Below are positions 25,226 to 37,929 of a stretch of 64,000 nucleotides of DNA, piece by piece. Numbering within the stretch: the first letter of the stretch is position 1; each line of letters opens with the position of its first letter. This DNA comes from an uncultured Planctomycetia bacterium (GTDB taxonomy: Bacteria; Omnitrophota; Gorgyraeia; Gorgyraeales; Gorgyraeaceae). Below the pieces are notes generated by a model. The model did not search any database and was not told the DNA's origin. It saw nothing but the letters and a program-made list of their open reading frames with translations. The DNA lies in NCBI GenBank assembly GCA_964652265.1, contig CAZZAL010000004.1, forward strand, positions 590 to 64,589, given 5' to 3'. Both the position numbers and the translations under genes were made by a program.

Positions 25226-25672
25226 TCAATGTAAAAACTGTGAGGTTAGCTCTTCTACAGCCTTGGAGACCTCGTCACTTAAGCCCTCTCCAAGCTTGTT
25301 AGACTTTGGCTTTACTCCTAATAGATAAATATCAGCATTCGTAGAAGATTTAAGATATTCTATCAAGAGCTTCGGAGATACATCATGCGTAGAAACCTTT
25401 CCCACTCGAAGATCGTCTCCTGAAAAAAGCCTAGCCTCCCCTGCCCCACCGTCAAATTGAATAGCGTCTACGATAATAATCACCTCAGGCTTTAATTTTG
25501 TTATAACACCTGTATAATTTTCAGGTGCGACTCCAGCGTCTATGACCTCGCAAGGAACCTTTCCTTTTATTGCTAAGGCAAGGTACGGGCCAACACCATC
25601 ATCCCCCCGGTCAATATTACCAATACAGAGCACCACTGTGCGTTCTGTTAAAAGAGATTTTAGATTAATCAT
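25226..25672 (-). CDS. hycI: hydrogenase maturation endopeptidase (HycI/HybD family)
   Basis: VVLCIGNIDRGDDGVGPYLA...DAIQFDG...STHDVS motifs. I prefer the ATG at 25672 to the track start at 25720. Confidence 0.8.
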   Translation of the reverse strand: MINLKSLLTERTVVLCIGNIDRGDDGVGPYLALAIKGKVPCEVIDAGVAPENYTGVITKLKPEVIIIVDAIQFDGGAGEARLFSGDDLRVGKVSTHDVSPKLLIEYLKSSTNADIYLLGVKPKSNKLGEGLSDEVSKAVEELTSQFLH

Positions 25673-25680
25673 GGATTTTA

Positions 25681-26285: not shown

Positions 26286-26612
26286 TTATTTTCCGTCTTC
26301 AGCGTATTTATCGACTACGCTTTTCTCCCATAGTTTTACACCTGATTTATAAGCAGCCCGTGCCAGCGCATGAGCAGATACAGGCGAGGTCAATATCAAA
26401 AAGACCATGCATAAAAACGCCTTTATGCCCAATATTGAAAATCCATCTATAATGATAACTCCTAATAAAATACTGCAGGTCCCAAGGGTTATACATTTAG
26501 TAGCTGCCTGAAGACGATTGTATACATCAGGAAACCTCACAAGTCCGAGACACCCAATAAGATCAAAGAAAAGGCCAATAGATATAAAAACTATGCCGAC
26601 TGTATCAATCAT
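26286..26612 (-). CDS. MrpG/MnhG-like subunit (MbhC-like)
   Basis: 108 aa. GCLGLVRFPDVYNRLQAATKCITLG is the MnhG signature. Confidence 0.75.
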   Translation of the reverse strand: MIDTVGIVFISIGLFFDLIGCLGLVRFPDVYNRLQAATKCITLGTCSILLGVIIIDGFSILGIKAFLCMVFLILTSPVSAHALARAAYKSGVKLWEKSVVDKYAEDGK

Positions 26613-26979
26613 CGAATGATTTTCCTTCTAAAAATTTTGCCAGTGCTAATGTCGCTATAAAGCTCTGTAAAGCCCATGCAATCGCAATATCAATATACCA
26701 GCTCCTTCCAGTTGAAATGCCCATGATAGCGCAAAAACCGACTATCAGGATACCGAGCATATCAATAGTCACTGCCCTGTCTGCAGAAGTAGGGCCTCTC
26801 ATTATCCTGTATAAACATAAAATACATGCCAGTAAAAGAACATAAAACGCTCGCCTTAAAAAACCCAGAAACGGCATATCCTGACAGAAAAGTATAGACA
26901 AGGATCCAAACATAATTACAGCTAATGCTGCTAGAATAATAATCGCTCCTATTATATAACGAAACCTTTGTCGTCTCAT
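26605..26979 (-). CDS. MrpF/MnhF-like subunit (MbhB-like)
   Basis: 124 aa, 3 TM helices, RGPTSADRAVTIDMLG motif. Confidence 0.7.
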   Translation of the reverse strand: MRRQRFRYIIGAIIILAALAVIMFGSLSILFCQDMPFLGFLRRAFYVLLLACILCLYRIMRGPTSADRAVTIDMLGILIVGFCAIMGISTGRSWYIDIAIAWALQSFIATLALAKFLEGKSFDD

Positions 26980-27473
26980 TCTTCGAATATCCTCTTCAAG
27001 ATCCTTTCAAACTTTTCCACTATAAACTTTGTCGCCTTTATAACATCCTTATGCCTTACTTCGATCCAGTGCACGTACAAAAACCCTTTTTCTCTATCTA
27101 TATCAACAGTTAATGTCCCCGGCGTAAGCGTAATGGAATTCGCCAGAAACGTAAGCGCAGTATCTGATTTAAGAGAGGTCTTGACCTTTACTATGCCAGG
27201 ATGTATCGGCATATCAGGATGAATCACCCTGTACGCCACGTCAATATTAGCTTTAAAACATTCCCACATAAAAACAGGGACATAATACAAAAACCAGAGA
27301 TAACGACTTGCATGCGTCAAAAGATGCGGTCTTTTTACAAAAAAATCTCCTGTCATATACGCGACAAAGGCTGAAGCAAAAACGCCTACAACGATATGCT
27401 GCCAGTCGGGTACCCAATTCAGAAAAACCCAAGCAACGATCCCTAATACAAATAGAATAATTCGGCTCTTCAT
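26976..27473 (-). CDS. MrpE/MnhE-like subunit (MbhA-like)
   Basis: 165 aa with the SITLTPGTLTVDID motif. Confidence 0.7.
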   Translation of the reverse strand: MKSRIILFVLGIVAWVFLNWVPDWQHIVVGVFASAFVAYMTGDFFVKRPHLLTHASRYLWFLYYVPVFMWECFKANIDVAYRVIHPDMPIHPGIVKVKTSLKSDTALTFLANSITLTPGTLTVDIDREKGFLYVHWIEVRHKDVIKATKFIVEKFERILKRIFEE

Positions 27474-28975
27474 TATCTTATAGCTCCAAAAACTGTAGCA
27501 ATGTAATCTTTCTGCCCAGCCAACACCGTATCTTTTGCAATGTCAAGAAGATATCCGGAAATAGCCGGCAGGAGAAGCAGGCCTCCAACTAAACAAATAA
27601 CTGCCAGCACGACCATTGAAAACTTCATAAAAAACGGGCATTCTTTTATGTGGCTAAATGTCCCTTTTAACTCCCCGAAAAAGGCATAGCGCTGAACCTT
27701 CATAAAATAAGCCAGAGTCAGGATGCTTGCGAAAACTGCCCAGAATGCGTGCATAAAATGCTGCGCCTGGATACACGCGACAATAATAATCAATTTGCTC
27801 CAGAAGCCATTAAATGGTGGGACGCCCGCGATAGACATAGATCCTACAAGCGATGTATTTGCCGTAACTGGCATTTTCTCCTTCAACCCACCCATCTTCT
27901 GTAAATCCCTTGTCCCAGTAGAATATTCGATTGCGCCCGAATTCAAAAATAAGAGTGATTTAAACACAGAATGATTTAATAAATGAAACAACCCTCCCAG
28001 AATCCCTAGGGGAGTCCCTAGACCAATGCCAAGTATCACATAACCGATCTGATTTACAGAGCTATAGGCTAACAACCTTTTAAAATCCCACTGCCCTAGG
28101 GCAAGGGCCGCTCCGATAATAATCGACAATGTCCCTATGGTCATAAAAATCGATAAGATCTGCTGGCTTGCGCCCAGCACGCTAAAAAATACTCTTATCA
28201 ATGCATAAACTCCGAGGGATTTTATAAGTACTCCTGAAAGCATCGCTGAAATAGGCGCAGGCGCAGATGGATGGGCATCCGGAAGCCATGCATGGAAAGG
28301 AACAAGCGCTGATTTCAGGCCAAATCCCATAAGAAATAAAACGCTCACAAGCAATACTATACGAGACGGGCCTTTTTCAAGTAACTGGATTGCCATATCA
28401 GCCATGTTCAGTGTAGAAGTAAAGCTGTATAAAAACGCGATACCTAATAATATAAAGGTAGAAGCAAGGCTACCCATCACTGCATATTTAAAAGACGCCT
28501 CGAGCTCTTCATGCTCGGTACCGAATGCAACCAGAGAATAACTCGCAATCGCAGCAATCTCAAGAAATACATACAGGTTGAACATGTCACCGCTTATTAT
28601 CACGCCATTCATACCAGCAATCATCAATAAAAACAGACAATAAAAGAGCGATTTCTCCGTATACTTGTTCATATAATCTATGGAATAAACGCTTATGAGA
28701 AACGCGATGATATTAATCGTCACCAGCATGAAAACCGTAAGCCCATCCATGACCATTGCTATGCCTATCGGTGCTATCCAACCACCCACCCTATAAACAA
28801 TCGCGCCGTTCTCTTTAAACAGAAACACAGCATACACTGAGACGGCGGCTAAACAAAACGTAGCGATACTAGACAATATATCTGAAAATCCCTTTATCCT
28901 TTTCCCCAAAAGGGAATTCAAAAAAGCGCTCGCCAGCGGTATGGCAACAAATAATGGCAATATGTTCTGTGTCAT
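27473..28975 (-). CDS. MrpD/NuoM/NuoN-like antiporter subunit (MbhH-like)
   Basis: 500 aa, ~14 TM helices. WLPDAHPSAPAPISAMLSGVLIK is the proton-conducting-membrane-transporter signature. Confidence 0.8.
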   Translation of the reverse strand: MTQNILPLFVAIPLASAFLNSLLGKRIKGFSDILSSIATFCLAAVSVYAVFLFKENGAIVYRVGGWIAPIGIAMVMDGLTVFMLVTINIIAFLISVYSIDYMNKYTEKSLFYCLFLLMIAGMNGVIISGDMFNLYVFLEIAAIASYSLVAFGTEHEELEASFKYAVMGSLASTFILLGIAFLYSFTSTLNMADMAIQLLEKGPSRIVLLVSVLFLMGFGLKSALVPFHAWLPDAHPSAPAPISAMLSGVLIKSLGVYALIRVFFSVLGASQQILSIFMTIGTLSIIIGAALALGQWDFKRLLAYSSVNQIGYVILGIGLGTPLGILGGLFHLLNHSVFKSLLFLNSGAIEYSTGTRDLQKMGGLKEKMPVTANTSLVGSMSIAGVPPFNGFWSKLIIIVACIQAQHFMHAFWAVFASILTLAYFMKVQRYAFFGELKGTFSHIKECPFFMKFSMVVLAVICLVGGLLLLPAISGYLLDIAKDTVLAGQKDYIATVFGAIR

Positions 28976-28978
28976 AAA

Positions 28979-29317
28979 TTAACCTTTTAACCTGCGAATC
29001 TTTGTAATATCAAACGTCCCGTATTTTTCATAGACTCTAACCGCAATAGACGCTATCAAGGCCGTAACTGCAAGCCCTATAACTATGGCGGTTAAAACAA
29101 GCGCCTGCGGCAATGGATCGACCATATTAACTATCACCTGGTCAGGCGCATGTATGGGCGCACGGCCATGCATCCTGTATCCTACAAGTATGAAAAAAAG
29201 ATTCACGGCATACTCTGTTATAGCTATGCCTATAATAATCTTTATAAGATTTCGTTTTCTAAGTATACAATAGAGCCCTACACAAAAAAGTACTAAACAT
29301 AAAAAGTAAAGACTCAT
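28979..29317 (-). CDS. MrpC/NuoK-like subunit (MbhG-like)
   Basis: 112 aa, 3 TM helices. Position and size match MnhC/NuoK. Confidence 0.7.
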   Translation of the reverse strand: MSLYFLCLVLFCVGLYCILRKRNLIKIIIGIAITEYAVNLFFILVGYRMHGRAPIHAPDQVIVNMVDPLPQALVLTAIVIGLAVTALIASIAVRVYEKYGTFDITKIRRLKG

Positions 29318-29766
29318 TATTCCCCGCCCTTTTTAGGCAACTTGAAGGTTACCAGAATAATAAAAATAATAAAAAGACCCGCGCCTACCTTAAAACTTAT
29401 AGCCACATTATATAAAGGTATGAGCCCTGATGAAAAGAGCTCAAAGGGTTCGCCCTTAGCAATAAAATTCAAAAAGAAATATCCACTGGCAATACCAAGG
29501 ATCGCCAAAGTTACAAACATTATCGCGCCGAAGCTTTCAAAAAACGAAGCAACATTCTGGTTTACCTTTTTAAGCGCTGCGTCTTTTCCAAACGCGAGCA
29601 TAAGGTGTATGAAGGAAAGCGCAACAATCACCCCACCTGCAAAACCTCCACCAGGTGAAATATGGCCATGGCTGATAATATAGATACCAAACAAAAGTAT
29701 CAGTCCCACCGTAAGCCGCGTGATCGTCTTTACTATTAGCGTCATTCCTTTTCTGGGATCGTCCAT
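29317..29766 (-). CDS. MrpB/MnhB-domain subunit (MbhF-like)
   Basis: 149 aa with GHISPGGGFAGG. Confidence 0.65.
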   Translation of the reverse strand: MDDPRKGMTLIVKTITRLTVGLILLFGIYIISHGHISPGGGFAGGVIVALSFIHLMLAFGKDAALKKVNQNVASFFESFGAIMFVTLAILGIASGYFFLNFIAKGEPFELFSSGLIPLYNVAISFKVGAGLFIIFIILVTFKLPKKGGE

Positions 29767-30284
29767 TATTTCTTCCTTCCCACTTTCCTCATAACTGCCA
29801 GGACTCCAATCACCGCTGTAAAAAGAATGGTTGCTTCGCCCAAGGTGTCATACGCGCGGTAATCCAAGACTATCGCAGATACTAGATTTGTAGCTCCGGT
29901 TTGTTTCAAACCCTGAGTCAAAAAGGTCTGCGCCACCCTCATTATAGGCTCTCCAAACTGTGGCAGATCCTTCATGCAAAAATAGCCAAAAGCTAAAAAT
30001 ACGACAAGGAACGCAAACGTCATAAAGGTATTAAAAAACCAGCGTCCGCTCGTAGAAAACGGGAGGTCCTTCCTGATAGTAGCCCTTATCAATATTATTA
30101 CAACTAGGATCTCGACTACGAGCTGTGCGATCGCAAGGTCTGGCGCCTTAAGGATCAAAAATGCTAGAGACAGGCCAAGACCTACTGTACCTACTGCGAT
30201 AACAGATGATAGAAGATCTTTTGCCTTCACCGCTACTATTGCGCCTATAATCATAAATACTAAAAGTATCTGTAATTCAAGCAT
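29766..30284 (-). CDS. DUF4040/MnhB-N fusion subunit (MbhD/E-like, equivalent to the MrpA C-terminal part)
   Basis: 172 aa. NLVSAIVLDYRAYDTLGEATILF motif follows N-terminal DUF4040-like TM helices. Confidence 0.65.
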   Translation of the reverse strand: MLELQILLVFMIIGAIVAVKAKDLLSSVIAVGTVGLGLSLAFLILKAPDLAIAQLVVEILVVIILIRATIRKDLPFSTSGRWFFNTFMTFAFLVVFLAFGYFCMKDLPQFGEPIMRVAQTFLTQGLKQTGATNLVSAIVLDYRAYDTLGEATILFTAVIGVLAVMRKVGRKK

Positions 30285-30290: not shown

Positions 30291-32090
30291 TTACCTCACA
30301 AGAGCAAAAAGAAAAATCATTATACCTAGTATGCACCATATAAGATATGTCGGTAATACGCCATTATGCAAATATTTAAATATACGTATAAAGAAAAATA
30401 CAAACTTCTTCCCGACCTCATATATATCAAAAAACTTTTTCTCTGCCTTTTTGTATATAGTTCTTATAAGCGGTAATTCTTTTATTGTATTGTAAAATTC
30501 TGTCCCGGAAAGCCTCATATCTTTTCCGAGGTCTTCTCCTCCTATATAAGAGCCTGTTTCTCTTATACCTTTAAAGTTGCCAGTCAGATACACCAGGACA
30601 CCAACGCCAAGCCCTATGGCTAAAAATAACGTAGCTTTTAAAGACGGCCACATGCCAATAAATCTTATATCCGACAGGATAGGCACTATAAAATGCTTTA
30701 AGGGGACTATATAGGCGAATATTCCAAATACGATACAAAGAGTAGCAAGTATTACAGGCGGAATCCACATACTCCAGGAAACTTCATCCCGCTGTTTGGC
30801 ATCTCCTGATTGCCGTTCATTCTTGGCCTTGCCCAAGAATATTGCATGTATAAATTTTATAAACGACGCCAGTGTAAGGCCACTACCAAACATAGCGGCT
30901 ACAATACAGAATATCCACAATACCCCGCCTGATTTGCCCTTTTCTATCAATCCCTGATAGACCATCCATTTTGAAAAGAAACCATTGAATGGCGGCACAC
31001 CCGATATTGACAGGGCTGCTATAAGCGCAGAAAAGAACGTTATCGGCATTATCTTGGCAAGACCACCAAGAGAATCTAAATCTGATGTCTTGGTTTTATG
31101 TTGAACATTGCCGCCTGAAAGAAAGAGACAGCTCTTATATAGCGTATTATTAAGCATGTGAAAAAGTCCGCCTGCAATACCTATCGGGTTGCCTGTGCCA
31201 AGTCCGAGCACCATATAGCCGACCTGGCTTACCGCATGATAACCAAGAAGCCTTTTGAAATCGTGCTGCACGAGTGCCATCATTACTGCTGCCACTATGG
31301 TAACAGCCCCGATTACCATAAGAAGCGCATAAGTATTGCCATCCAGTATAAACACATTCAATACCAACCTCGCCAGCAAATAAATGCCGAGTAATTTATC
31401 AAGGGACGCTGGCAGAAATGCAGTCACTGGCACTGGCGCCTCTTTTGCTGTATCAGGTATCCACGTGTGAAACGGCATTGCACCTGCCTTTGCAAACGCG
31501 CCTATGGCTATCAATAAAAATGCCCAGAAAGACAAAGAACTATCTATGGCTATCCTTATGCTGGAGAGATTTAAATCACCTGTAATAAGCCAGACAATAG
31601 CAAAACCCAAAATCATGAGGCTATCTGAACCACCTATTATTATAAAGGTCTTTTTGCTTGCACCTGCTGCAGCCGGACCAGCTACATTGATAAGCATATA
31701 TAAGGTAAACCCGAGGAAACCCCATGCTACTAGAAGTATCACGATATTATTAGAAAGGGCTGCCAGAAGAGAAAATCCAATGGTCCATATTACATTCGCA
31801 TAATACGAACGAAACTGTTTAAAAGAAGCCATGAACCGCAGCGAATACAGGCTTACCAGCGCCCCGAAAAATCCTATACCAAGCACGATAAATCTCGAAA
31901 GTCCATCAACGTATAGATAATCTGCATGGATAGGCGCCTTTGCAAATATTCTTATTGAGGCAATAAACAAATAAACAGCAATTGCGAGACTAAATCCCTC
32001 CACCAGCTTCCTGAACCTCTTAGGAATAAAAAGTACGAAGCTTCCCGCTAATATCGAAATCAAAATTGGCTGTAACAATATCTCCATCAT
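30291..32090 (-). CDS. NuoL/MrpA/HyfB-like large antiporter subunit
   Basis: 599 aa, >14 TM helices. FHTWIPDTAKEAPVPVTAFLPASLDK signature. Confidence 0.8.
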   Translation of the reverse strand: MMEILLQPILISILAGSFVLFIPKRFRKLVEGFSLAIAVYLFIASIRIFAKAPIHADYLYVDGLSRFIVLGIGFFGALVSLYSLRFMASFKQFRSYYANVIWTIGFSLLAALSNNIVILLVAWGFLGFTLYMLINVAGPAAAGASKKTFIIIGGSDSLMILGFAIVWLITGDLNLSSIRIAIDSSLSFWAFLLIAIGAFAKAGAMPFHTWIPDTAKEAPVPVTAFLPASLDKLLGIYLLARLVLNVFILDGNTYALLMVIGAVTIVAAVMMALVQHDFKRLLGYHAVSQVGYMVLGLGTGNPIGIAGGLFHMLNNTLYKSCLFLSGGNVQHKTKTSDLDSLGGLAKIMPITFFSALIAALSISGVPPFNGFFSKWMVYQGLIEKGKSGGVLWIFCIVAAMFGSGLTLASFIKFIHAIFLGKAKNERQSGDAKQRDEVSWSMWIPPVILATLCIVFGIFAYIVPLKHFIVPILSDIRFIGMWPSLKATLFLAIGLGVGVLVYLTGNFKGIRETGSYIGGEDLGKDMRLSGTEFYNTIKELPLIRTIYKKAEKKFFDIYEVGKKFVFFFIRIFKYLHNGVLPTYLIWCILGIMIFLFALVR

Positions 32091-33262
32091 TATCTCTTCA
32101 TCCGTGCTGTCTTTTCCTGGGACAGCCGGATCAGATCTTGGCCATCCATTATTTTCTTACCGCTCTTATGATCTACAACCGCCATTCTCTCTGTACAGCA
32201 ATAGCACGGATCCACTGCAGCTAAGATTATAGTAGCATCTGAAACTGTCTCGCCTATAACTGCTTTTTTATTAGAGAAGACGTTCATGAAGCTTGGCGCC
32301 CTTACCTTGTGACGGACAGGACTGTTTCCACCATCAGACATGATATAGTGAAATACCTCGCCACGCGGCGCCTCGTGTCTCCCAATACCCTCTCCAACCG
32401 GCATATCTTTTATATTAAGGTCTATCGGACCTTTTGGTATCTTATCAAGACACTGAAGTATTATATTTGTCGATTCATAAAGTTCCAAAAGTCTCACAAC
32501 TGCCTTTGAAAAAACTCCTCCGCCTTCAGCAGTTATGACTTTCCAGTCAACTTTATCATAAGCTGCGTAAGGATCATCCCGGCGTACATCAATAGCCACA
32601 CCTGAAGCCCTTGCTGTTGGCCCTACAACGGAATAATCATGCACATCTTGCTTTGTCAGCACGCCCACGTCTTCGGTCCTCGCTCGTATCACGGGATCAT
32701 CAATAACAGCACCTTTGAACATGTCAAATTTAGGTATCAAGCTCTTCAGTGTCTTTTTTATCCACGGGAAATCTGCTTCATCCAGATCCCTTCGCATGCC
32801 ACCTGGCTTAAACATGGCATAATGATTCCTGTTCCCAGTGATCCTTTCGAATATATCAAGGACCGGTTCCCTGTATTTCCACGCCCACATCCATACAGTG
32901 TTATATCCTAAAAAATGGCCCGCAAGGCCAACCCATAAAAGATGACTATGTATCCGTTCTAATTCTCCGATTATAGTACGTATATAAAGTGCTCTCTCTG
33001 GAACCTGGACTCCTAATAGATCATCAATAGCATTTGTATAGGCAAAAGGATGCGATGTCGAGCAGATCCCGCAAATCCTCTCGACCAGAAACGTTACTTG
33101 GTCATAGCTCTTGGACTCAGCTATCTTCTCGATAGCCCGGTGGTTATATCCAATCTCTATATCCATATCCACAACAGTCTCGCCGTCAACGTGCAACCTG
33201 AAAAACTCTGGCTCTTCCTGTAGTGGATGATAAGGACCTATTGGAATAATCTTTTTCGCCAT
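32090..33262 (-). CDS. group-4 [NiFe] hydrogenase large subunit (MbhL/EchE/HycE-like, NuoD homologue)
   Basis: N-terminal RICGICSTSH (RxCGxCxxxH) and C-terminal DPCYCCTER (DPCxxCxxR) Ni-Fe ligand motifs are both present. A ~32-aa tail follows, consistent with HycI processing. Confidence 0.9.
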   Translation of the reverse strand: MAKKIIPIGPYHPLQEEPEFFRLHVDGETVVDMDIEIGYNHRAIEKIAESKSYDQVTFLVERICGICSTSHPFAYTNAIDDLLGVQVPERALYIRTIIGELERIHSHLLWVGLAGHFLGYNTVWMWAWKYREPVLDIFERITGNRNHYAMFKPGGMRRDLDEADFPWIKKTLKSLIPKFDMFKGAVIDDPVIRARTEDVGVLTKQDVHDYSVVGPTARASGVAIDVRRDDPYAAYDKVDWKVITAEGGGVFSKAVVRLLELYESTNIILQCLDKIPKGPIDLNIKDMPVGEGIGRHEAPRGEVFHYIMSDGGNSPVRHKVRAPSFMNVFSNKKAVIGETVSDATIILAAVDPCYCCTERMAVVDHKSGKKIMDGQDLIRLSQEKTARMKR

Positions 33263-33265: not shown

Positions 33266-33700
33266 TTACTCGTCCCTTCTTAAAGGATAATTCCCTTCAG
33301 GCCAATCGTCTTTTAAAAGTAGATGCTTCAGATTCGGGTGGTCTTTAAAATTCACTCCCAAGAGCTCGTGGATTTCTCTTTCTATCCACTCTGCACATTT
33401 CATCAGAGGTGTCAAACTATCTACTTGGAGGTCAGATTTATCCAAAACAACTCTCAACGAAACTATAAGTCCGATCTCGTCAACTGAAAAATGATAAAGT
33501 ATCTCGATTGCCTTTCGTGTATCCACTCCGGACGCGATTGAAAACCTTGCCCTTACGTCCTTAAAGAGGTACCGAGCTATCTTTGGCAATATCTCTTTTT
33601 TAATAGTAACGTAGACACGCTTCTCTGAACGATCTTCAATCTCCAGCATGTCTCCTCCGGCCCGCACCTTTATATTTTCTATAACGTCTATTCTTCTCAT
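33266..33700 (-). CDS. NuoC/MbhK-like subunit
   Basis: The 30-kDa-subunit-like ...CAEWIEREIHELLGVNFKDHPNLKHLLL... is present. I prefer the ATG at 33700, which forms an ATGA overlap with the upstream gene, to the track start at 33769. Confidence 0.75.
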   Translation of the reverse strand: MRRIDVIENIKVRAGGDMLEIEDRSEKRVYVTIKKEILPKIARYLFKDVRARFSIASGVDTRKAIEILYHFSVDEIGLIVSLRVVLDKSDLQVDSLTPLMKCAEWIEREIHELLGVNFKDHPNLKHLLLKDDWPEGNYPLRRDE

Positions 33701-34122
33701 TTCTTGCCCTGTAGTTTTTGAATCAATTTCACAATACCCAGTATCATTGCCTCTGGTTTTGGCGGACATCCTGGTATATAGACATTGACTGGAAGTAAAG
33801 AATCCACTGGATCCGGCGTATTATACCCTTTTGCAAAAATACCTTGGTCACAAGAACACGCGCCTATCGCAATCACAACACACGGCTTTGGCGCCTGATC
33901 ATATACAGCCTTTACCCTAGGTATTGTCTTTAGATTCAACGCACCTGTCACCAGTATTGCATCAGCATGCTTCACGCTTCCGACAAGCAGTATGCCAAAC
34001 CTCTCTACGTCAAAACGCGGGGTCAAAAGATCCAGTATCTCTATGTCGCAATTATTGCAACTGCCTGTTGAAAGGTGATAAACCCAAATCGATTTAGTTA
34101 ATGCCTTAAGTTTTAAACTCAT
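33697..34122 (-). CDS. [NiFe] hydrogenase small subunit (NuoB/MbhJ-like)
   Basis: GSCNNCD, GACSC and GCPPKPE Cys ligands for one [4Fe-4S] cluster. Confidence 0.85.
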   Translation of the reverse strand: MSLKLKALTKSIWVYHLSTGSCNNCDIEILDLLTPRFDVERFGILLVGSVKHADAILVTGALNLKTIPRVKAVYDQAPKPCVVIAIGACSCDQGIFAKGYNTPDPVDSLLPVNVYIPGCPPKPEAMILGIVKLIQKLQGKK

Positions 34123-34123: not shown

Positions 34124-35029
34124 CTACATCCCCAATGTTGCCAGTAAAACTGCGACGCTAGCTATAAGCGTCATCTTGCCCCAGAAAAATCTCATTGCCT
34201 GATCAATCCTCACGCGAGGATTTGTATTCCTCATAAGAATTATAACCACCAATAAAATCACGTACTTCCATATGCTAAACCCGCCCCAAAATACCGTGGT
34301 CAAAAATACTGGGAGCGCGACCATCATCATTGTCTTTGTGAGTTTCAGAATAGCCAAAAGCATACCTGAATATTCTATATAAGCCCCTGCCATTATCTCT
34401 GTCTCTGCCTCGCCCATATCAAACGGCACAAGTCCCAATTTTGCCTGCATGCAAAATATCGCTACCAAAATCGCCAGAACTCCAGAGAAATTTGAAACAA
34501 ACGCGCCATTTGCTGCCTGAAAAGCAATTAAATCCGTCAACCTCAATAACCCGTTGCTTTTAATAATAGGCACGATAAGGGCTATAATAAAAGGTAATTC
34601 ATAAGCAAGGATTAATTTTATCTCTCTTGATGCGCCAAGAGATGCCAGTGGATTGCCGCTTGCTGATGAGCCCAATATAAGTGCGATCGCCGGCAATGTC
34701 AATAGATACAGGATAACGATAAGGTCTCCTGTAAAACCACTCGCACCCAATTCTATATTCGCCAACCATATAAAGGTAGATGCCAGTATAACTGCGCTAA
34801 GTCCCATGAGCGGAGAAAAGAAAAATACCAGCTTTGAAGCTCCCCTTGGAACAGTTATCTCCTTTATACTCAATTTCACCAGATCAACAAAAGGCTGATA
34901 CCATGGCGGTCCCACCCTCCATTGTACACGGGCAGTTACCTTGCGATCTATCCAGCTCGCTAGGAGGCCTACTGCAGCTGTAAATAAAAATCCAGGAAAT
35001 ACTATGAAATTAAATAAATGTCTCATCAT
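34124..35029 (-). CDS. NuoH/MbhM/HycD-like membrane subunit
   Basis: ~300 aa, 8 TM helices, RKVTARVQWRVGPP motif. I prefer the ATG at 35029, which forms an ATGA overlap with the upstream gene. Confidence 0.8.
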   Translation of the reverse strand: MMRHLFNFIVFPGFLFTAAVGLLASWIDRKVTARVQWRVGPPWYQPFVDLVKLSIKEITVPRGASKLVFFFSPLMGLSAVILASTFIWLANIELGASGFTGDLIVILYLLTLPAIALILGSSASGNPLASLGASREIKLILAYELPFIIALIVPIIKSNGLLRLTDLIAFQAANGAFVSNFSGVLAILVAIFCMQAKLGLVPFDMGEAETEIMAGAYIEYSGMLLAILKLTKTMMMVALPVFLTTVFWGGFSIWKYVILLVVIILMRNTNPRVRIDQAMRFFWGKMTLIASVAVLLATLGM

Positions 35030-35508
35030 GGGTGAAGCTTCTTCCACGCCTTTGCGTACACGGCTATATTTTTACCTACTAAATATATATCGTCTTTTTC
35101 TGAGGGTTTTACATCTATAAATTTCACCGCACCATCAACAGAGCAAGTCTTCGCGCAGAGCGGCTCATCCTTCTTGCAACGATCAATACATTCATCGCAC
35201 TGCGACGTTATATAAGGTACTGTCTCTAGTGGTATTGTGCCAAAAGGGCATGCCAGGCTACATGACTTGCACGATACGCAGCGCATTGTGTAGCGCTTCA
35301 CTGTACCGTCAGAATCTTTTTCCAGTGCCTCTTTTGGACACGCGTTTATGCAAGGTGCCTCTTCGCACTTCCTGCAGATATACCTAAACTGGCCTATCTC
35401 TCTAAGACGGATCACTCCGTCATTTCCAGGGTGATAATAGTAACTGCACTTTGCTGTAGGTTTTTCGCAACTATATAATTTTTCAAGGTCTACAAGTAAG
35501 CGCTTCAT
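35026..35508 (-). CDS. poly-ferredoxin-like Fe-S protein (HycB/CooF-like)
   Basis: 160 aa with CRKCEEAPCINACP, CVSCKSCSLACP and CDECIDRC...C motifs. Confidence 0.7.
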   Translation of the reverse strand: MKRLLVDLEKLYSCEKPTAKCSYYYHPGNDGVIRLREIGQFRYICRKCEEAPCINACPKEALEKDSDGTVKRYTMRCVSCKSCSLACPFGTIPLETVPYITSQCDECIDRCKKDEPLCAKTCSVDGAVKFIDVKPSEKDDIYLVGKNIAVYAKAWKKLHP

Positions 35509-35511
35509 ATG

Positions 35512-36336
35512 CTAATCCCAGATTTCGTGGATATTGCTTATCTTATCGTACCTGAATACTGGCCCGTCTTTACAGACATAGAAATTTCCGAGCCTGCAAT
35601 GACCGCACTTGCCAAAACCACAACTCATATTCTTTTCCATCGATAGATATATCTGTTCTTCCTTGTATCCTATCTCGATAAGCTTAAAAGTGCTGAATTT
35701 CATCATGATCGGAGGGCCACATACCACCGCAACGCTATTCTTAAGATCTATCTTTAGGTTGTCCAGGGTAGTAGTTACAAGACCTTCTTTGCCCTTCCAG
35801 TCCTTGTCTTTCTTATCAACCGTGATCCTGAAATTGACCTTTTTATCTATCTTCTGCCATTTATCCAGCACGCTTTCCTTATATATAATGTCAGATGGGG
35901 TCCTGGAACCGCAGCAAAATGTTATGCTCTTGTATTTCTTCACATCATGGACCAGGGCTAAGAATAGAGATCTTAACGGTGCCAGTCCCACGCCTCCTCC
36001 GACCAATAAAACATCTTTTCCTTCATAATCAGAAAGAGGGTATTCGTTTCCATAAGGTCCGCGTAGCCCCACTGTATCGCCTTTTTTTAGATCATGGATC
36101 TTTCCGGTAATCTGACCTGCCTTCATAATACTAATCTCCAGCTTTTGTTTTTCATGCGGAGAAGAAGAAGGAGTAAAAGGTGCCTCGCCCAGACCTGGCA
36201 CAGTCATCTCCATAAACTGGCCTGCTTTAAAAGACAGCGGGGTTTCTGGTTTAAGAGTAACTGTCTTGATCGTAGAACTTTCTTCGCAGATACCCAAAAC
36301 CTCTGTCTTTACCGGAGCATAAGGATTATCTATCAT
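35512..36336 (-). CDS. FNR-fold FAD/NAD(P)-binding oxidoreductase with a C-terminal [2Fe-2S] (sulfhydrogenase gamma HydG / AsrB / PyrK-like)
   Basis: 274 aa. LLVGGGVGLAPL nucleotide-binding loop and CGFGKCGHCRLGNFYVC cluster motif. Confidence 0.75.
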   Translation of the reverse strand: MIDNPYAPVKTEVLGICEESSTIKTVTLKPETPLSFKAGQFMEMTVPGLGEAPFTPSSSPHEKQKLEISIMKAGQITGKIHDLKKGDTVGLRGPYGNEYPLSDYEGKDVLLVGGGVGLAPLRSLFLALVHDVKKYKSITFCCGSRTPSDIIYKESVLDKWQKIDKKVNFRITVDKKDKDWKGKEGLVTTTLDNLKIDLKNSVAVVCGPPIMMKFSTFKLIEIGYKEEQIYLSMEKNMSCGFGKCGHCRLGNFYVCKDGPVFRYDKISNIHEIWD

Positions 36337-37367
36337 AACTTACTCAACACTTCCCTGATATCTATCTTTCCCGGACATGCCTCAGTGCATCTTCCGCAAC
36401 CAGTGCAGCCAAATTTCCCAATCACATCAGGGAAAAAATTAAACTTCTTATCAAAACGGTTTCTCAGGCGCTCGGCCAGAAGCTTTCTTGGGTTCGCCCC
36501 GCCCGCAACCCTTGCAAAAGACAAGAGAAGGCATGAATCCCACAGCCTGAGTCTTTCGAATCCCTTACCAACATCTTGGTCCTTTAGAATAAAGCAGTGG
36601 CATGCCGGACAAATCATATTGCATGCACCGCATTCGACGCAAGTCTTTATTGTTTCTTCCCATAGCCTTGAGTCAAATTTTTTCTTGAAACCTTCTTGTA
36701 TAGAATCCTTTTTCGGGATTTTACTTTCCTTTACGTGTTCCAAAAGGCTTTCTTTTAATTTCTTCCTGTTTTCCGCTTTTTTTTCAGTATAAAGATTAGC
36801 ACTCTGAAACAACTTAAAATATTCCTTTATTATTTTTTCTCCTTTTTCAGAACCTACCTCTATCACATATCCGCTAGCCACCTCTGAAAGATTTATATCA
36901 AAGTCTTCGCTCGGATAAGGCATTATGCCTAAGGCGACGCAAAAACAACTCCCGCCATACAACGTGCAATCACTTGAGATTATCAGTCCTTCTTCTCTCC
37001 TAGAGACATATAGAGGATCCTTAAGGGGATCCTGCATGTATACATAATCCATTATCTTAAGCGAGGCCAGGTCACACGACTTGGCCCCTATTATCGCTAT
37101 AGGCCTTGATTTTTTCTCAGGAGTAGCTTCAGAAAAATAATCTGATACCTTTGTGCGGGCAGGAAAATAAAAACTCTTTATGGTCTGGACCGCTCTTATC
37201 TCTCCAACGACAACATCCTCAAACCCTTCGTCTCTTACTCTTCTGTAAGATATCTTATCTTCGGATTTTACAGGAATATAGACCCTGTATGTCTTGGAAA
37301 GCGACTTGGCTAGCCTATCAAGATTCGGCCTGTTGATAAAATACGTGTTCAACGAAGTACCTTTCAA
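36333..37367 (-). CDS. 4Fe-4S dicluster protein (sulfhydrogenase beta HydB / AsrA-like)
   Basis: 344 aa with CVECGACNMICPACHC and CTGCGRCTEACP motifs. The track start is a TTG. A second TTG five codons downstream has GAAAGG upstream, so the start is uncertain. Confidence 0.7.
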   Translation of the reverse strand: MKGTSLNTYFINRPNLDRLAKSLSKTYRVYIPVKSEDKISYRRVRDEGFEDVVVGEIRAVQTIKSFYFPARTKVSDYFSEATPEKKSRPIAIIGAKSCDLASLKIMDYVYMQDPLKDPLYVSRREEGLIISSDCTLYGGSCFCVALGIMPYPSEDFDINLSEVASGYVIEVGSEKGEKIIKEYFKLFQSANLYTEKKAENRKKLKESLLEHVKESKIPKKDSIQEGFKKKFDSRLWEETIKTCVECGACNMICPACHCFILKDQDVGKGFERLRLWDSCLLLSFARVAGGANPRKLLAERLRNRFDKKFNFFPDVIGKFGCTGCGRCTEACPGKIDIREVLSKL

Positions 37368-37375: not shown

Positions 37376-37395
37376 TTTGTGAAAATTATCACAAA
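37376..37395. promoter_or_regulatory. CRP/FNR-type palindrome TTTGTGA-aaatta-TCACAAA in the operon leader
   Basis: An exact TGTGA-N6-TCACA core lies 8 nt upstream of the first start codon and downstream of the predicted -10 element. Confidence 0.45.
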
Positions 37396-37428: not shown

Positions 37429-37456
37429 ATTATAATACAAAGCTAGTTTATGTCAA
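37429..37456 (-). promoter_or_regulatory. consensus sigma70 promoter of the hydrogenase operon
   Basis: Minus strand reads TTGACA-16 nt-TATAAT. Confidence 0.6.
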
Positions 37457-37889: not shown

Positions 37890-37929
37890 ATTCCCCTCCA
37901 TCTTAAATTTACATACCAAAAGTGTAAAG

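What the first reader, a model, noticed from the sequence alone, without database searches (positions are those of the whole stretch)
35026..37367. HydB/HydG-like NAD(P)H-type electron-input module at the head of a membrane-bound, ion-translocating hydrogenase operon
- The three genes directly upstream, overlapping the membrane-hydrogenase genes, are: a HydB/AsrA-like 4Fe-4S protein, an FNR-fold flavoprotein with a GGGVGLAPL nucleotide loop and a C-terminal [2Fe-2S] motif (HydG/AsrB/PyrK-like), and a HycB/CooF-like polyferredoxin.
- In known systems the HydB/HydG pair couples soluble sulfhydrogenases (or AsrAB sulfite reductase) to NAD(P)(H).
- Characterised group-4 hydrogenases take electrons from ferredoxin, formate or CO.
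- NAD(P)H-to-H2 electron transfer is endergonic at standard potentials (about -320 mV versus -414 mV). Coupling it to an Mrp antiporter module implies one of two things: ion-gradient-driven H2 evolution from NAD(P)H, or H2-driven NAD(P)+ reduction that builds an ion gradient.
- As far as I know, that is an undescribed energy-converting configuration.
Basis: inference. Interest (0 to 1): 0.7.

Follow-up and report, generated by a model that had tools for sequence, protein, structure and literature searches.

The report
NAD(P)H module on membrane hydrogenase
An uncultivated Omnitrophota bacterium carries a 17-gene operon in which a membrane-bound, ion-pumping hydrogenase starts with a module resembling the NAD(P)H-binding part of soluble hydrogenases; the same layout recurs in many anaerobe lineages and may link NAD(P)H to H2 through the membrane ion gradient, but no one has tested this.

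Summary
Window 35026-37367 (minus strand) encodes three proteins:
- a HydB/AsrA-type Fe-S protein
- a HydG/AsrB-type FAD/NAD(P)/[2Fe-2S] flavoprotein
- a HycB/CooF-type polyferredoxin

They are packed against a true group-4 [NiFe] hydrogenase with a full Mrp module, a HycF-like subunit and HycI.

The layout is not a one-off:
- 50 of 53 related loci with enough flank keep the order HydB-HydG-CooF-NuoH-B-C-D, and 37 of 39 carry Mrp.
- Record titles name Omnitrophota, Atribacterota, Aegiribacteria/Fermentibacteria and Spirochaetota, among others.
- Relatives sampled down to 34% HydB identity keep the layout.
- The FAD, NAD(P) and [2Fe-2S] motifs are nearly invariant.

New here: a perfect Rex (NADH/NAD+ sensor) operator lies between a 12/12 promoter and hydB. 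Rex boxes or rex genes recur upstream in many related loci.

My best reading is an FHL-like complex in which a NAD(P)H dehydrogenase replaces formate dehydrogenase, that is, an ion-coupled NAD(P)H:H+ oxidoreductase that mainly disposes of NADH as H2.

The arrangement is not wholly undescribed. Two metagenomic papers recorded Mbh-Mrp clusters with an extra "oxidoreductase" module of unknown function, one naming asrA/asrB/cooF-like genes. Other papers treat such enzymes as ferredoxin-coupled Mbh or "group 4g".

The function is untested. I rate it a new variant of a known kind.

The parts
37429..37456 (-). sigma-70-type promoter (TTGACA, 16 nt spacer, TATAAT)
   Evidence: 12 of 12 consensus match, the best in the 17.5 kb scanned. 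It lies in the 114-nt gap between the NIL-ferredoxin gene and hydB.
37377..37394 (.). Rex operator, TTGTGATAATTTTCACAA on the coding strand (palindrome TTGTGA-N6-TCACAA)
   Evidence: It is the only zero-mismatch site in the 64 kb window. It sits about 35 nt downstream of the -10 box and 10-25 nt upstream of the hydB start. The same box recurs upstream of hydB or rex in related loci: 22 of 79 perfect and 30 of 79 with at most one mismatch, against 5 of 390 random 320-nt windows. It also occurs in the more distant loci L082, L084 and L085.
36333..37367 (-). HydB/ShyB/AsrA-like Fe-S subunit (beta-type), probable true start 37352
   Evidence: Pfam Fer4_22 2.4e-29. NCBIfam ShyB 185.7 bits, HydB 152.5, AsrA 140, all far below the equivalog cut-offs. 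9nez_B SHI beta 2.9e-39, with the conserved cysteines matched in the printed alignment. The top Foldseek hit of the AF2 model is 9nf0_B (the model is poor, pLDDT 60).
35512..36336 (-). HydG/AsrB/PyrK-like flavoprotein (FAD, NAD(P), [2Fe-2S]; gamma-type)
   Evidence: Pfam FAD_binding_6, NAD_binding_1 and DHODB_Fe-S_bind. NCBIfam AsrB 232.7 bits (cut-off 288.6) and HydG 212.5 (cut-off 650). 9nez_C 1.1e-60. The motifs GEAPFTPS, GGGxGxAPxR and the four C-terminal Cys are nearly invariant in 74 orthologues.
35026..35508 (-). HycB/CooF/HydN-like polyferredoxin (15 Cys, probably 3-4 [4Fe-4S] clusters), proposed connector
   Evidence: Pfam Fer4_11 6.4e-11. Best solved relatives are HycB4 7qv7_B and E. 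coli HycB 7z0s_B. Cysteines are conserved in 68 orthologues. It follows HydG in the 50 of 53 loci that keep the full core.
34124..35047 (-). NuoH/MbhM/HycD-like membrane subunit
   Evidence: Pfam NADHdh 7.4e-60.
33697..34122 (-). NuoB/MbhJ-like hydrogenase small subunit
   Evidence: Pfam Oxidored_q6 2.4e-27.
33266..33769 (-). NuoC/MbhK-like subunit (likely start 33700)
   Evidence: Pfam Complex1_30kDa 2.3e-25.
32090..33262 (-). [NiFe] large subunit, group 4 (NuoD/MbhL/HycE-like)
   Evidence: Pfam Complex1_49kDa and NiFeSe_Hases. 6cfw_L MbhL 4.5e-88 and 7z0s_E HycE 1.5e-83. RICGICSTSH and DPCYCCTER are invariant in 54 orthologues.
30291..32090 (-). MrpA/NuoL-like antiporter subunit (599 aa)
   Evidence: Pfam Proton_antipo_M 1.5e-56.
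29766..30284 (-). MbhD/MbhE-like membrane subunit
   Evidence: Pfam MbhD and MbhE.
29317..29766 (-). MnhB-like membrane subunit
   Evidence: Pfam MnhB 9.6e-25.
28979..29317 (-). MrpC/NuoK-like subunit
   Evidence: Pfam Oxidored_q2 7.7e-28.
27473..28975 (-). MrpD/NuoN-like antiporter subunit (500 aa)
   Evidence: Pfam Proton_antipo_M 1.8e-71.
26976..27473 (-). MrpE
   Evidence: Pfam MNHE 8.9e-46.
26605..26979 (-). MrpF
   Evidence: Pfam MrpF_PhaF 5.4e-17.
26286..26612 (-). MrpG
   Evidence: Pfam PhaG_MnhG_YufB 1.2e-27.
25681..26283 (-). NuoI/HycF-like 2x[4Fe-4S] subunit with a C-terminal CxxC...CxxC extension
   Evidence: Closest solved relative is E. coli HycF 7z0s_F, 2e-19, ahead of MbhN 6cfw_N, 2.7e-12. 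It is 200-208 aa in the six HydBG-linked loci where it was recovered. Four of the five relatives keep the extension cysteines and L074 lacks one. The unlinked group-4 hydrogenase next door in two Atribacterota loci has a 133-aa version.
25226..25720 (-). HycI-type large-subunit maturation protease
   Evidence: Pfam HycI 1.1e-16.

Best explanation
The operon encodes one membrane complex built like a formate hydrogenlyase, except that a NAD(P)H dehydrogenase takes the place of formate dehydrogenase.

Proposed electron path:
- HydG-like (FAD, [2Fe-2S]) binds NAD(P)H.
- HydB-like and then the HycB/CooF-like polyferredoxin carry electrons through Fe-S clusters.
- The HycF-like subunit, then the NuoB-like subunit, pass them to the [NiFe] site in the NuoD-like subunit.

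Proton reduction, or H2 oxidation, at the NuoD/NuoB/NuoH interface is coupled to ion movement through the NuoH-like subunit and a complete Mrp module.

Transcription starts at one strong promoter and is gated by Rex. The complex should therefore be made when NADH/NAD+ is high, and its main job should be to dispose of NAD(P)H as H2.
- At the very low H2 pressures of syntrophic or sediment habitats this reaction could run unaided or even pump ions.
- At higher H2 the ion gradient would have to drive it, as Ech, Eha and Ehb use a gradient to drive their uphill direction.

Shown here: gene identities, cofactor motifs, the tight operon, co-conservation and the Rex operator. Inferred: docking of the module on the complex, NAD(P)H as substrate, direction, and ion coupling.
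For: - Homology. HydG-like matches SHI gamma at 1.1e-60 and HydB-like matches SHI beta at 2.9e-39, with the conserved cysteines matched in the printed alignments. From established knowledge, in both characterised contexts (sulfhydrogenase and AsrABC) this protein pair connects NAD(P)(H) to a catalytic partner.
- Constraint. The FAD motif, the GGGxGxAPxR loop and the [2Fe-2S] cysteines are nearly invariant over 74 orthologues that are 50-89% identical.
- Synteny. 50 of 53 loci keep HydB-HydG-CooF-NuoH-B-C-D and 37 of 39 carry Mrp. Three representatives at 42%, 39% and 34% HydB identity also keep it.
- Inheritance as a unit. Divergence of HydB, HydG and CooF tracks that of NuoD, NuoH and MrpA (Spearman 0.67-0.76). 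Linked large subunits are 56-90% identical to the window's, while an unlinked neighbouring group-4 hydrogenase is 44%.
- FHL-like connectors. CooF-like is nearest to HycB and the NuoI-like subunit is nearest to HycF. The six linked NuoI-like subunits recovered carry a C-terminal extension that the unlinked hydrogenase in two Atribacterota loci lacks.
- Translational coupling. Genes overlap or are separated by a few nt.
- Rex. A perfect operator lies between promoter and hydB. Boxes are enriched upstream in related loci and rex is adjacent in 25 of 79. Induction at high NADH fits an NADH-consuming enzyme.
- Replacement. In Latescibacterota-labelled loci HydG is replaced by a different pyridine-nucleotide flavoprotein next to HydB and Mrp genes. 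The recurring element is therefore a NAD(P)H-type flavoprotein plus HydB.
Against: - There are no biochemical or expression data.
- Rex also controls the ferredoxin-dependent Ech hydrogenase and PFOR in Caldicellulosiruptor bescii (PMC6391272). The operator therefore shows a redox-balance role, not the identity of the donor.
- NADH versus NADPH is unresolved. Position 145 is always Lys or Arg, as in NADPH-using SHI gamma, and no acidic residue ends beta-2. Rex senses NADH.
- Both proteins score far below every curated equivalog cut-off, so transferring function from SHI or Asr is an inference.
- Ferredoxin could still feed the CooF-like or HycF-like clusters.
- One closed Omnitrophota genome has the module and NuoH-B-C-D, but no Mrp or HycF-like gene within the roughly 5.7 kb recovered downstream.
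- Published reconstructions assume ferredoxin as the donor.
Confidence: 0.5

Rival explanations
1. The complex is an ordinary ferredoxin-oxidising, H2-evolving Mbh-Mrp. The HydBG/CooF branch is a second exit, not the input. It would pass some ferredoxin- or H2-derived electrons to NAD(P)+, working as a membrane-attached SHI or a ferredoxin:NAD(P)+ reductase that supplies NAD(P)H for biosynthesis or the Wood-Ljungdahl pathway.
For: All characterised Mrp-linked Mbh enzymes use ferredoxin (HydDB table). From established knowledge, P. furiosus SHI is thought to run H2 to NADPH in vivo. The conserved Lys/Arg at position 145 matches NADPH-using SHI gamma. Omnitrophota carrying this hydrogenase are predicted acetogens (PMC10066038).
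Against: - Rex de-represses at high NADH, which is the wrong signal for an enzyme that makes more reduced pyridine nucleotide (inference).
- Electron transfer from ferredoxin to NAD(P)+ within the peripheral arm would bypass the coupling site and waste energy compared with Rnf, which these organisms are reported to have.
- By analogy with HycB on HycF in FHL, the CooF-like subunit would cover the HycF-like subunit where ferredoxin binds in Mbh.
Confidence: 0.2
2. The complex takes electrons from NAD(P)H (through HydBG) and from reduced ferredoxin (through CooF/HycF) at the same time. The exergonic ferredoxin electrons would help pull NADH oxidation, a membrane counterpart of confurcating [FeFe] hydrogenases.
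For: Two potential entry points exist, a flavoprotein and exposed polyferredoxin clusters. Fermenters produce both carriers. Rex also controls confurcating hydrogenases (PMC6391272).
Against: No known bifurcating flavoprotein type (NfnB/GltD, HdrA, EtfAB, NuoF-like) is encoded in the operon. The PyrK/HydG-type FAD is not the bifurcating site in Nfn (established knowledge). Simple mixing of two donors on one wire gives no thermodynamic help.
Confidence: 0.1
3. HydB, HydG and CooF form a separate soluble oxidoreductase that is merely co-transcribed with the hydrogenase. It could be, for example, a NAD(P)H:ferredoxin or other redox-balancing enzyme.
For: Both characterised homologues belong to soluble enzymes (SHI, AsrABC). 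One closed genome has the module and NuoH-B-C-D with no adjacent Mrp or HycF-like gene.
Against: - Fixed order and translational coupling persist across lineages whose HydB proteins share as little as 34% identity.
- Divergence of the module tracks that of the membrane subunits.
- Its connector is of the HycB type, and the HycF-like subunit has a specialised extension.
- No alternative catalytic partner is encoded in the operon.
Confidence: 0.08
4. The module reduces a sulfur compound (polysulfide, S0 or sulfite) or another unknown acceptor with electrons from H2 or ferredoxin, as proposed for sulfhydrogenase beta/gamma and for AsrAB.
For: There is homology to AsrA/AsrB and to the sulfhydrogenase beta/gamma subunits. 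In Latescibacterota-labelled variants HydG is replaced by a CoA-disulfide-reductase/NSR-like flavoprotein. A sister clade inserts an unclassified molybdopterin oxidoreductase.
Against: - No AsrC or siroheme protein was seen in the annotated parts of the window or in the four loci with Pfam gene tables.
- From established knowledge, the sulfur reductase activity of SHI is not regarded as physiological.
- The NAD(P) site is nearly invariant, which points to a pyridine-nucleotide substrate whatever else happens.
Confidence: 0.07

Closest known systems
Pyrococcus furiosus membrane-bound hydrogenase Mbh (group 4d; PDB 6CFW)
   Same: It has a NuoD-like [NiFe] large subunit (6cfw_L is the best solved match, 4.5e-88), NuoB-, NuoC-, NuoH- and NuoI-like subunits, MbhD/E, MnhB and Mrp-type membrane subunits, and ion translocation coupled to H2 chemistry.
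   Different: Mbh takes electrons directly from ferredoxin at MbhN and has no HydB, HydG or HycB-like subunits. It has one antiporter-like subunit, where the window has two (599 and 500 aa) plus MrpE, F and G. The window's NuoI-like subunit is closer to HycF than to MbhN.
Formate hydrogenlyase (E. coli Hyc, PDB 7Z0S) and the Thermococcus onnurineus Fdh-Mfh-Mnh formate-respiring complex (groups 4a and 4b)
   Same: A soluble dehydrogenase is wired to a group-4 hydrogenase through a HycB-type polyferredoxin and a HycF-type subunit. In T. onnurineus the complex is also Mrp-linked and works close to thermodynamic equilibrium (established knowledge).
   Different: The input enzyme here is a HydB/HydG-type flavoprotein pair, not a molybdopterin formate dehydrogenase. 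The window's operon has no molybdopterin gene. A sister clade (L082) has both.
Pyrococcus furiosus soluble sulfhydrogenase I (group 3b; PDB 9NEZ and 9NF0)
   Same: Its beta and gamma subunits are the closest solved relatives of the first two genes. They share the cysteine patterns, the FAD site, the NAD(P) loop and the [2Fe-2S] motif.
   Different: In SHI the beta/gamma pair docks on a soluble group-3b alpha/delta hydrogenase. Here no group-3b alpha or delta subunit was seen in the operon or the adjacent genes I annotated, and the partner genes encode a membrane-bound group-4 enzyme. The window proteins score far below the ShyB/HydB/HydG/ShyC equivalog cut-offs.
Salmonella anaerobic sulfite reductase AsrABC
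   Same: AsrA- and AsrB-like proteins form a NADH-to-Fe-S electron-input pair (NCBIfam AsrB 3.9e-69, AsrA 1e-40).
   Different: There is no AsrC. Scores are below the AsrA and AsrB cut-offs (140 against 323; 232.7 against 288.6).
Respiratory complex I (Nuo)
   Same: It follows the same design principle: a NADH dehydrogenase module attached to a NuoB/C/D/H/I core and antiporter-like subunits.
   Different: The N-module is NuoEFG (FMN), not HydBG (FAD). The acceptor is quinone, not H+. NuoD has lost the Ni-Fe cysteines that are retained here.
'Mbh-Mrp-oxidoreductase type' and 'enigmatic group 4' clusters of Saganbacteria and Elusimicrobia, and 'group 4g, Mrp-linked' of Omnitrophota and Cloacimonadota (metagenomic literature)
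   Same: This is probably the same gene family. Matheus Carnevali 2019 list cooF, asrA and asrB with a group-4 hydrogenase and Mrp, and name Omnitrophica and Zixibacteria as the closest relatives. Williams 2021 and Seymour 2023 assign Omnitrophota enzymes to group 4g.
   Different: Those reports leave the module's function open or assume ferredoxin. The Saganbacteria cluster also contains a molybdopterin oxidoreductase that the window lacks. None mentions Rex control or the breadth of conservation.

Membership tests
Group 4 (energy-converting) [NiFe] hydrogenase | The large subunit is of the NuoD/Complex1_49kDa type and has both pairs of Ni-Fe-binding cysteines (N-terminal CxxC and C-terminal CxxC). 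| tested here: met
   Pfam Complex1_49kDa and NiFeSe_Hases. RICGICSTSH and DPCYCCTER are present and invariant in 54 orthologues. MbhL and HycE are the best solved matches.
Group 4 (energy-converting) [NiFe] hydrogenase | NuoB-like small subunit, NuoC-, NuoH- and NuoI-like subunits and at least one antiporter-like membrane subunit in the same cluster, together with a maturation protease and hyp genes. | tested here: met
   HycI ends the operon, and hypA, hypE, hypD, hypC and a partial hypF lie directly upstream.
Mrp-linked ferredoxin-coupled Mbh (group 4d) | A complete Mrp-type module is encoded with the hydrogenase. | tested here: met
   MrpA/D-like (two copies), MbhD/E, MnhB, NuoK-like, MrpE, MrpF and MrpG.
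Mrp-linked ferredoxin-coupled Mbh (group 4d) | Reduced ferredoxin is the sole direct electron donor, with no extra dehydrogenase module. | tested here: not met
   Three extra redox subunits (HydB-, HydG- and HycB-like) head the operon and are co-conserved with it. Donor identity itself cannot be tested with these tools.
Formate hydrogenlyase and formate-respiring complexes (groups 4a and 4b) | HycB-type polyferredoxin and HycF-type subunit. | tested here: met
Formate hydrogenlyase and formate-respiring complexes (groups 4a and 4b) | A molybdopterin formate dehydrogenase is encoded with, or recruited to, the complex. | tested here: not met
   No molybdopterin protein occurs among the 17 operon genes or the adjacent genes scanned. 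The rest of the genome is unknown.
Group 3b sulfhydrogenase (HydABDG / ShyABCD) | Beta (HydB/ShyB) and gamma (HydG/ShyC) subunits that reach the equivalog thresholds. | tested here: not met
   ShyB 185.7 against 690, HydB 152.5 against 750, HydG 212.5 against 650 and ShyC 180.7 against 600 bits. These are clear homologues but not equivalogs.
Group 3b sulfhydrogenase (HydABDG / ShyABCD) | Soluble group-3b alpha and delta hydrogenase subunits adjacent. | tested here: not met
   The large subunit scores 48.5 bits against ShyA (cut-off 700) and 21.7 against HydA (cut-off 880). The neighbours are membrane subunits.
Anaerobic sulfite reductase AsrABC | AsrA and AsrB above the curated cut-offs, plus the AsrC siroheme subunit. 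| tested here: not met
   AsrA 140 against 323.15 and AsrB 232.7 against 288.6 bits. No AsrC-like gene was seen in the annotated parts of the window or in the four loci with Pfam gene tables.
HydG/AsrB/PyrK-type NAD(P)H flavoprotein (FNR fold plus [2Fe-2S]) | FAD-binding motif, glycine-rich NAD(P) loop and a C-terminal four-Cys [2Fe-2S] motif. | tested here: met
   All three Pfam domains are above their cut-offs. The motifs align with SHI gamma and are nearly invariant in the family. Actual nucleotide binding and NADH/NADPH preference are not testable here.
Rex regulon | An operator TTGTGA-N6-TCACAA in the promoter region, conserved in orthologous loci. | tested here: met
   A rex gene is adjacent in 25 of 79 loci. 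Binding and NADH response are not testable here.
HydDB 'group 4g' | Assignment of the large subunit by the HydDB classifier. | not tested
   HydDB is not available here. The literature assigns Omnitrophota Mrp-linked enzymes to 4g, and HydDB describes that group as of unknown function.
Respiratory complex I | NuoEFG N-module and a quinone-reducing NuoD without Ni-Fe ligands. | tested here: not met
   No NuoE, NuoF or NuoG occurs in the operon, and the Ni-Fe cysteines are retained.

The most novel reading that the evidence does not exclude
This is an independently evolved counterpart of complex I. A group-4 hydrogenase recruited a HydBG-type diaphorase instead of NuoEFG, giving a reversible ion-motive NAD(P)H:proton oxidoreductase. 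The enzyme would let fermenters and syntrophs turn NADH into H2 with the membrane gradient as a thermodynamic buffer: they gain ions at very low H2 and spend them at higher H2. It would be a widespread enzyme of uncultivated anaerobes and would give a function to a large share of the 'group 4g' hydrogenases. Affected lineages include Omnitrophota, Atribacterota, Aegiribacteria/Fermentibacteria and Spirochaetota, with literature reports suggesting Elusimicrobia and Saganbacteria.
Probability: 0.4. Interest if true: 0.85.

Novelty: new variant of a known kind. Interest (0 to 1): 0.65.

Why it matters
How anaerobes get rid of NADH as H2 is a central problem of fermentation and syntrophy, because the step is uphill unless H2 is kept extremely low. 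The known answers are:
- electron-confurcating [FeFe] hydrogenases
- Rnf combined with a ferredoxin-dependent hydrogenase
- NADH-dependent [FeFe] hydrogenases that work only at very low H2

A membrane [NiFe] hydrogenase that takes NAD(P)H directly and is coupled to an ion gradient would be a further solution in a single enzyme.

It would also change published metabolic reconstructions. Models for Omnitrophota, Atribacteria JS1 and Fermentibacteria currently draw this complex as a ferredoxin-only Mbh.

It would give a testable function to part of the uncharacterised group 4g.

It would add a second, independent example of a NAD(P)H module joining a Mbh-like core, the step thought to have produced complex I.

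The conserved Rex operator gives an immediate experimental handle.

Tried and rejected
- My first Rex pattern had the wrong spacing (TGTGAA-N6-TTCACA) and found nothing. The correct consensus TTGTGA-N6-TCACAA gave the single perfect site.
- The AF2 model of the HydB-like protein is poor (mean pLDDT 60, below 50 for the Fe-S half at residues 226-344). I use its Foldseek hit to SHI beta only as weak support.
- I did not run a second structure job. Multimer docking, the informative experiment, is not available.
- The listing of cluster members on ten distant representatives returned almost no organism names. No cultured host was found among the 80 scan loci, all from MAGs or single-cell genomes, or among these ten clusters.
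- A search for the paper behind the SHI structure found nothing in the held library. I therefore could not map the NADPH-contacting residues of 9NF0.
- I tried to decide NADH versus NADPH from the beta-2 region. It has a conserved Lys/Arg and no acidic residue. This is not decisive, because NADH-specific relatives can look similar.
- Flavin-based bifurcation: I rejected it as the main reading because no known bifurcating flavoprotein type is encoded.
- Sulfite reductase (Asr) and group-3b assignments failed their membership tests.
- I considered the NIL-ferredoxin and UPF0280 genes upstream as possible parts of the system. They lie upstream of the promoter, and the NIL-ferredoxin is missing in other clades, so I left them out.
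- Two fusions of HydB-like proteins to response-regulator or kinase domains gave no clue to a docking partner.

Full report
**1. What is in the sequence**

The finding's coordinates contain exactly three complete ORFs on the minus strand.

- 36333-37367, 344 aa, a HydB/ShyB/AsrA-type Fe-S protein.
  - Pfam Fer4_22 2.4e-29. NCBIfam ShyB 1.1e-54, HydB 1.3e-44, AsrA 1e-40.
  - The closest solved structure is the beta subunit of Pyrococcus furiosus sulfhydrogenase I (9nez_B, 2.9e-39). Its cysteine groups line up: C-x35-C-x6-CxC, CxxCxxCxxxCPxCxC, WDSC and CxxCxxCxxxCP.
- 35512-36336, 274 aa, a HydG/AsrB/PyrK-type flavoprotein.
  - Pfam FAD_binding_6, NAD_binding_1 and DHODB_Fe-S_bind. NCBIfam AsrB 3.9e-69, HydG 7.3e-63. 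9nez_C 1.1e-60.
- 35026-35508, 160 aa with 15 Cys, a HycB/CooF/HydN-type polyferredoxin.
  - Pfam Fer4_11 6.4e-11. The best solved relatives are HycB4 of the hydrogen-dependent CO2 reductase and E. coli HycB.

**2. The rest of the operon**

The three genes are followed without a break by fourteen more:
- NuoH-like, NuoB-like and NuoC-like subunits
- a NuoD-like large subunit
- MrpA/NuoL-like (599 aa), MbhD/E-like, MnhB-like and NuoK/MrpC-like subunits
- MrpD-like (500 aa), MrpE, MrpF and MrpG
- a NuoI/HycF-like subunit and the protease HycI

The large subunit keeps both Ni-Fe cysteine motifs (RICGICSTSH and DPCYCCTER). It is therefore a real hydrogenase and not an Mbx/Ehr-type relative. Its best solved matches are MbhL (6cfw_L, 4.5e-88) and HycE (7z0s_E, 1.5e-83).

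The NuoI-like subunit is closer to E. coli HycF (2e-19) than to MbhN (2.7e-12).

Successive genes overlap by 1-8 nt or are separated by at most 8 nt, once evident alternative starts are taken for NuoH, NuoC and HycI. This is the signature of one translationally coupled operon. Upstream lie hypF (C-terminal half only), hypC, hypD, hypE and hypA, then a UPF0280 protein and a NIL-ferredoxin.

**3. Promoter and a Rex operator (new)**

The 114-nt gap before hydB holds a 12/12 sigma-70 consensus promoter at 37456-37429, the best in the 17.5 kb scanned.

About 35 nt downstream of its -10 box lies the palindrome TTGTGATAATTTTCACAA (37394-37377). This is a perfect match to the Rex operator consensus TTGTGA-N6-TCACAA (consensus from my own knowledge of the Rex literature). 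It is the only zero-mismatch match in the 64 kb window.

Rex is the repressor that releases DNA when NADH/NAD+ rises (established knowledge; PMC6391272).

**4. Organism and breadth**

The closest HydB-like proteins (up to 91% identity) come from Candidatus Omnitrophota MAGs.

A scan of one genome per GTDB species with a HydB alignment found 393 relatives and kept the best 80, at 45-81% identity. I mapped the window's proteins onto the ORFs of these loci:
- 50 of 53 loci with at least 5.5 kb downstream have HydG-CooF-NuoH-NuoB-NuoC-NuoD in the same order and strand.
- 37 of 39 loci with at least 9 kb downstream carry Mrp subunits.
- Of the three loci that lack the full core, one (L070) contains masked N runs, one (L054) is the Latescibacterota-labelled variant described in section 7, and one (L060) was not followed up. 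The two loci without Mrp (L027, L070) both contain masked N runs.
- Record titles name Omnitrophota, Aegiribacteria/Fermentibacteria, Atribacterota, Spirochaetota, Latescibacterota and a Methylomirabilales-labelled MAG. Many are labelled 'uncultured Planctomycetia'.

A search of 1.84 billion cluster representatives found 824 clusters at E of 1e-30 or better. Three sampled representatives, at 42%, 39% and 34% identity, again sit in HydB-HydG-CooF-NuoHBCD-Mrp clusters. A fourth, at 31%, is on a short contig next to a divergent rex gene with a perfect Rex box.

All 150 listed representatives score above the level at which SHI beta matches (at least 181 bits against 138 bits; the two searches used different databases). 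The membrane-linked form is therefore a large family of its own.

**5. Signs that the module belongs to the complex**

- Identity of HydB, HydG and CooF to the window tracks identity of NuoD, NuoH and MrpA across loci. Pearson is 0.92-0.98, inflated by two clusters of points, and Spearman is 0.67-0.76.
- Large subunits from linked loci are 56-90% identical to the window's. A second, unlinked group-4 hydrogenase lying next door in Atribacterota is only 44% identical.
- The HycF-like subunit was recovered in only six linked loci, including the window. There it is 200-208 aa with a C-terminal CxxC...CxxC extension, and one locus (L074) lacks one of the four cysteines. The unlinked neighbour's subunit is 133 aa.
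- In 74 HydG orthologues the FAD motif (GEAPFTPS), the NAD(P) loop (GGGxGxAPxR) and the four [2Fe-2S] cysteines are nearly invariant. The Ni-Fe motifs are invariant in 54 large subunits.
- Rex boxes upstream of hydB or of an adjacent rex gene are perfect in 22 of 79 loci and have at most one mismatch in 30 of 79. The background is 5 of 390 random 320-nt windows. The rex gene is immediately upstream in 25 of 79 loci.

**6. Most likely mechanism**

The parts list is that of a formate hydrogenlyase (soluble dehydrogenase, then HycB, HycF, small subunit and [NiFe]) with an Mrp module, as in the Thermococcus formate-respiring complex. The difference is that the dehydrogenase is the beta/gamma pair. 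In its two characterised settings, sulfhydrogenase and AsrABC, that pair connects NAD(P)(H) to a catalytic partner (established knowledge; homology).

I therefore read the complex as a NAD(P)H:H+ oxidoreductase whose hydrogen chemistry is coupled to ion movement.

Rex logic argues for the NADH-consuming, H2-evolving direction. An enzyme that produces NADH would not sensibly be induced by high NADH (inference).

Thermodynamics, from standard potentials of -320 and -414 mV:
- At 1 bar H2 the reaction is uphill by about 18 kJ/mol.
- At about 10 Pa H2 it is near equilibrium.
- Below about 1 Pa H2 it is exergonic by roughly 10-16 kJ/mol.

The membrane arm could thus either be driven by the gradient, as Ech, Eha and Ehb are in their uphill direction, or conserve a little energy in syntrophic settings. 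Docking, substrate, direction and coupling are all inferred.

**7. Caveats and rivals**

- Rex also controls the ferredoxin-dependent Ech hydrogenase and PFOR in C. bescii (PMC6391272). The operator proves a redox-balance role, not the donor.
- NADH versus NADPH is open. Position 145 is always Lys or Arg, as in NADPH-using SHI gamma.
- The window proteins fall far below every curated equivalog cut-off.
- Rival readings are:
  - a ferredoxin-driven Mbh with HydBG as a NAD(P)+-reducing side exit
  - joint use of NADH and ferredoxin
  - a separate soluble enzyme that is merely co-transcribed
  - sulfur or another acceptor

Two variants bear on these readings:
- In Latescibacterota-labelled loci HydG is replaced by a CoA-disulfide-reductase/NSR-like pyridine-nucleotide flavoprotein beside HydB and Mrp genes.
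- In a sister clade an unclassified molybdopterin oxidoreductase sits between HydG and CooF.

The first variant supports 'a NAD(P)H flavoprotein plus HydB' as the recurring element. Both leave room for additional substrates.

**8. What is already known**

- HydDB defines group 4g as uncharacterised.
- Williams 2021 and Seymour 2023 assign the Omnitrophota Mrp-linked enzymes to 4g and treat them as redox-balancing Mbh.
- Papers on Atribacteria JS1 and Hyd24-12 draw a ferredoxin-dependent Mbh or energy-conserving hydrogenase. The Hyd24-12 paper separately lists a 'sulfhydrogenase'.
- Matheus Carnevali 2019 described the same kind of cluster in Saganbacteria as 'enigmatic'. It contained cooF, asrA and asrB, a group-4 hydrogenase, Mrp and a molybdopterin protein. 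They named Omnitrophica and Zixibacteria as the closest relatives and suggested a NuoE/F-like role for the extra genes.
- Meheust 2020 named a 'Mbh-Mrp-oxidoreductase type' of unknown function.
- Further searches found no paper proposing or testing an NAD(P)H-dependent Mbh. The held library does not cover most subscription journals.

**9. Verdict**

Module identity, co-conservation and a link to the pyridine-nucleotide redox state are solid. The enzymology is inferred. The arrangement had been noticed before, although not explained.
- Novelty: a new variant of a known kind, namely a group-4 Mrp-linked hydrogenase with an FHL-like architecture and a HydBG-type input.
- Interest: 0.65.

Noticed in passing
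window 41345-42481 (-), with hypC at 41133-41342: The HypF here is only the C-terminal Kae1-like half. It matches positions 382-740 of the hypF model and lacks the acylphosphatase, zinc-finger and YrdC domains. The preceding 344-aa ORF (42543-43577) has no HypF domains. A related locus (L085) has a full-length 767-aa HypF.
   Followed up: partly
window 37482-37919 and 37930-38661 (-): A NIL-domain 2x[4Fe-4S] ferredoxin and a UPF0280/PRK04334 protein sit between the hyp genes and the hydrogenase promoter. The pair is conserved at this position in the window's clade (L002-L026). In L085 only the UPF0280-like gene (AbpE_bact) is present. From memory, such proteins are linked to sulfide assimilation in methanogens. 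Their role here is unknown.
   Followed up: partly
L054 9263-18299 and L037 (Latescibacterota-labelled MAGs): This variant cluster reads Rex, HydB, MrpE, a 448-aa Pyr_redox_2 flavoprotein (CoA-disulfide-reductase/NSR-like, 255 bits, below cut-off), MrpF, MrpG and further Mrp subunits, then NuoH. HydG and CooF were not detected. It looks like a non-orthologous replacement of the NAD(P)H flavoprotein and recalls the Mbx/Mbs-NSR pairing of Thermococcales.
   Followed up: partly
L082 9001-19080 (metagenome contig; HydB 39% identical): A sister arrangement has a 611-aa molybdopterin oxidoreductase inserted between HydG and CooF. It is only partly Fdh-alpha-like (197.8 bits against a cut-off of 666). 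It matches the Saganbacteria cluster described in PMC6349859, and a Rex box with one mismatch lies 33 nt upstream of hydB.
   Followed up: partly
L045 and L069 (Atribacterota-labelled MAGs): Two group-4 hydrogenases lie side by side. An Ech/Mbh-like one has no HydBG, a 133-aa NuoI and a large subunit 44% identical to the window's (measured in L045). It is followed by rex (detected in L045 only) and the HydB-HydG-CooF-linked one.
   Followed up: partly
P0153 (682 aa) and P0166 (491 aa), distant HydB-like representatives: These HydB-like domains are fused, or mis-called as fused, to an N-terminal response-regulator receiver domain. P0153 also has a histidine-kinase ATPase domain.
   Followed up: no
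L001/L027 (closed Omnitrophota genome CP070780.1, positions 1-12198): This locus has rex, HydB, HydG, CooF and NuoH-B-C-D, followed by a radical-SAM gene. No Mrp, HycF-like or HycI gene lies in the roughly 5.7 kb recovered downstream, so the membrane and connector parts must be elsewhere or absent in this lineage.
   Followed up: no
window 17029-19595 (+) and 19702-24751 (+): A run of small proteins has type-IV-pilin-like N-termini (for example GFTLLELMIGAAVL). It is followed by a MarR regulator, a 490-aa ORF and a 1046-aa ORF that looks like an RND-type efflux pump. Only MarR was checked against Pfam.
   Followed up: no
whole window: GC skew is negative in all 2-kb windows except three between 18 and 24 kb (cumulative about -5.2), and most genes are on the minus strand. 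This suggests the window lies within one replichore.
   Followed up: no
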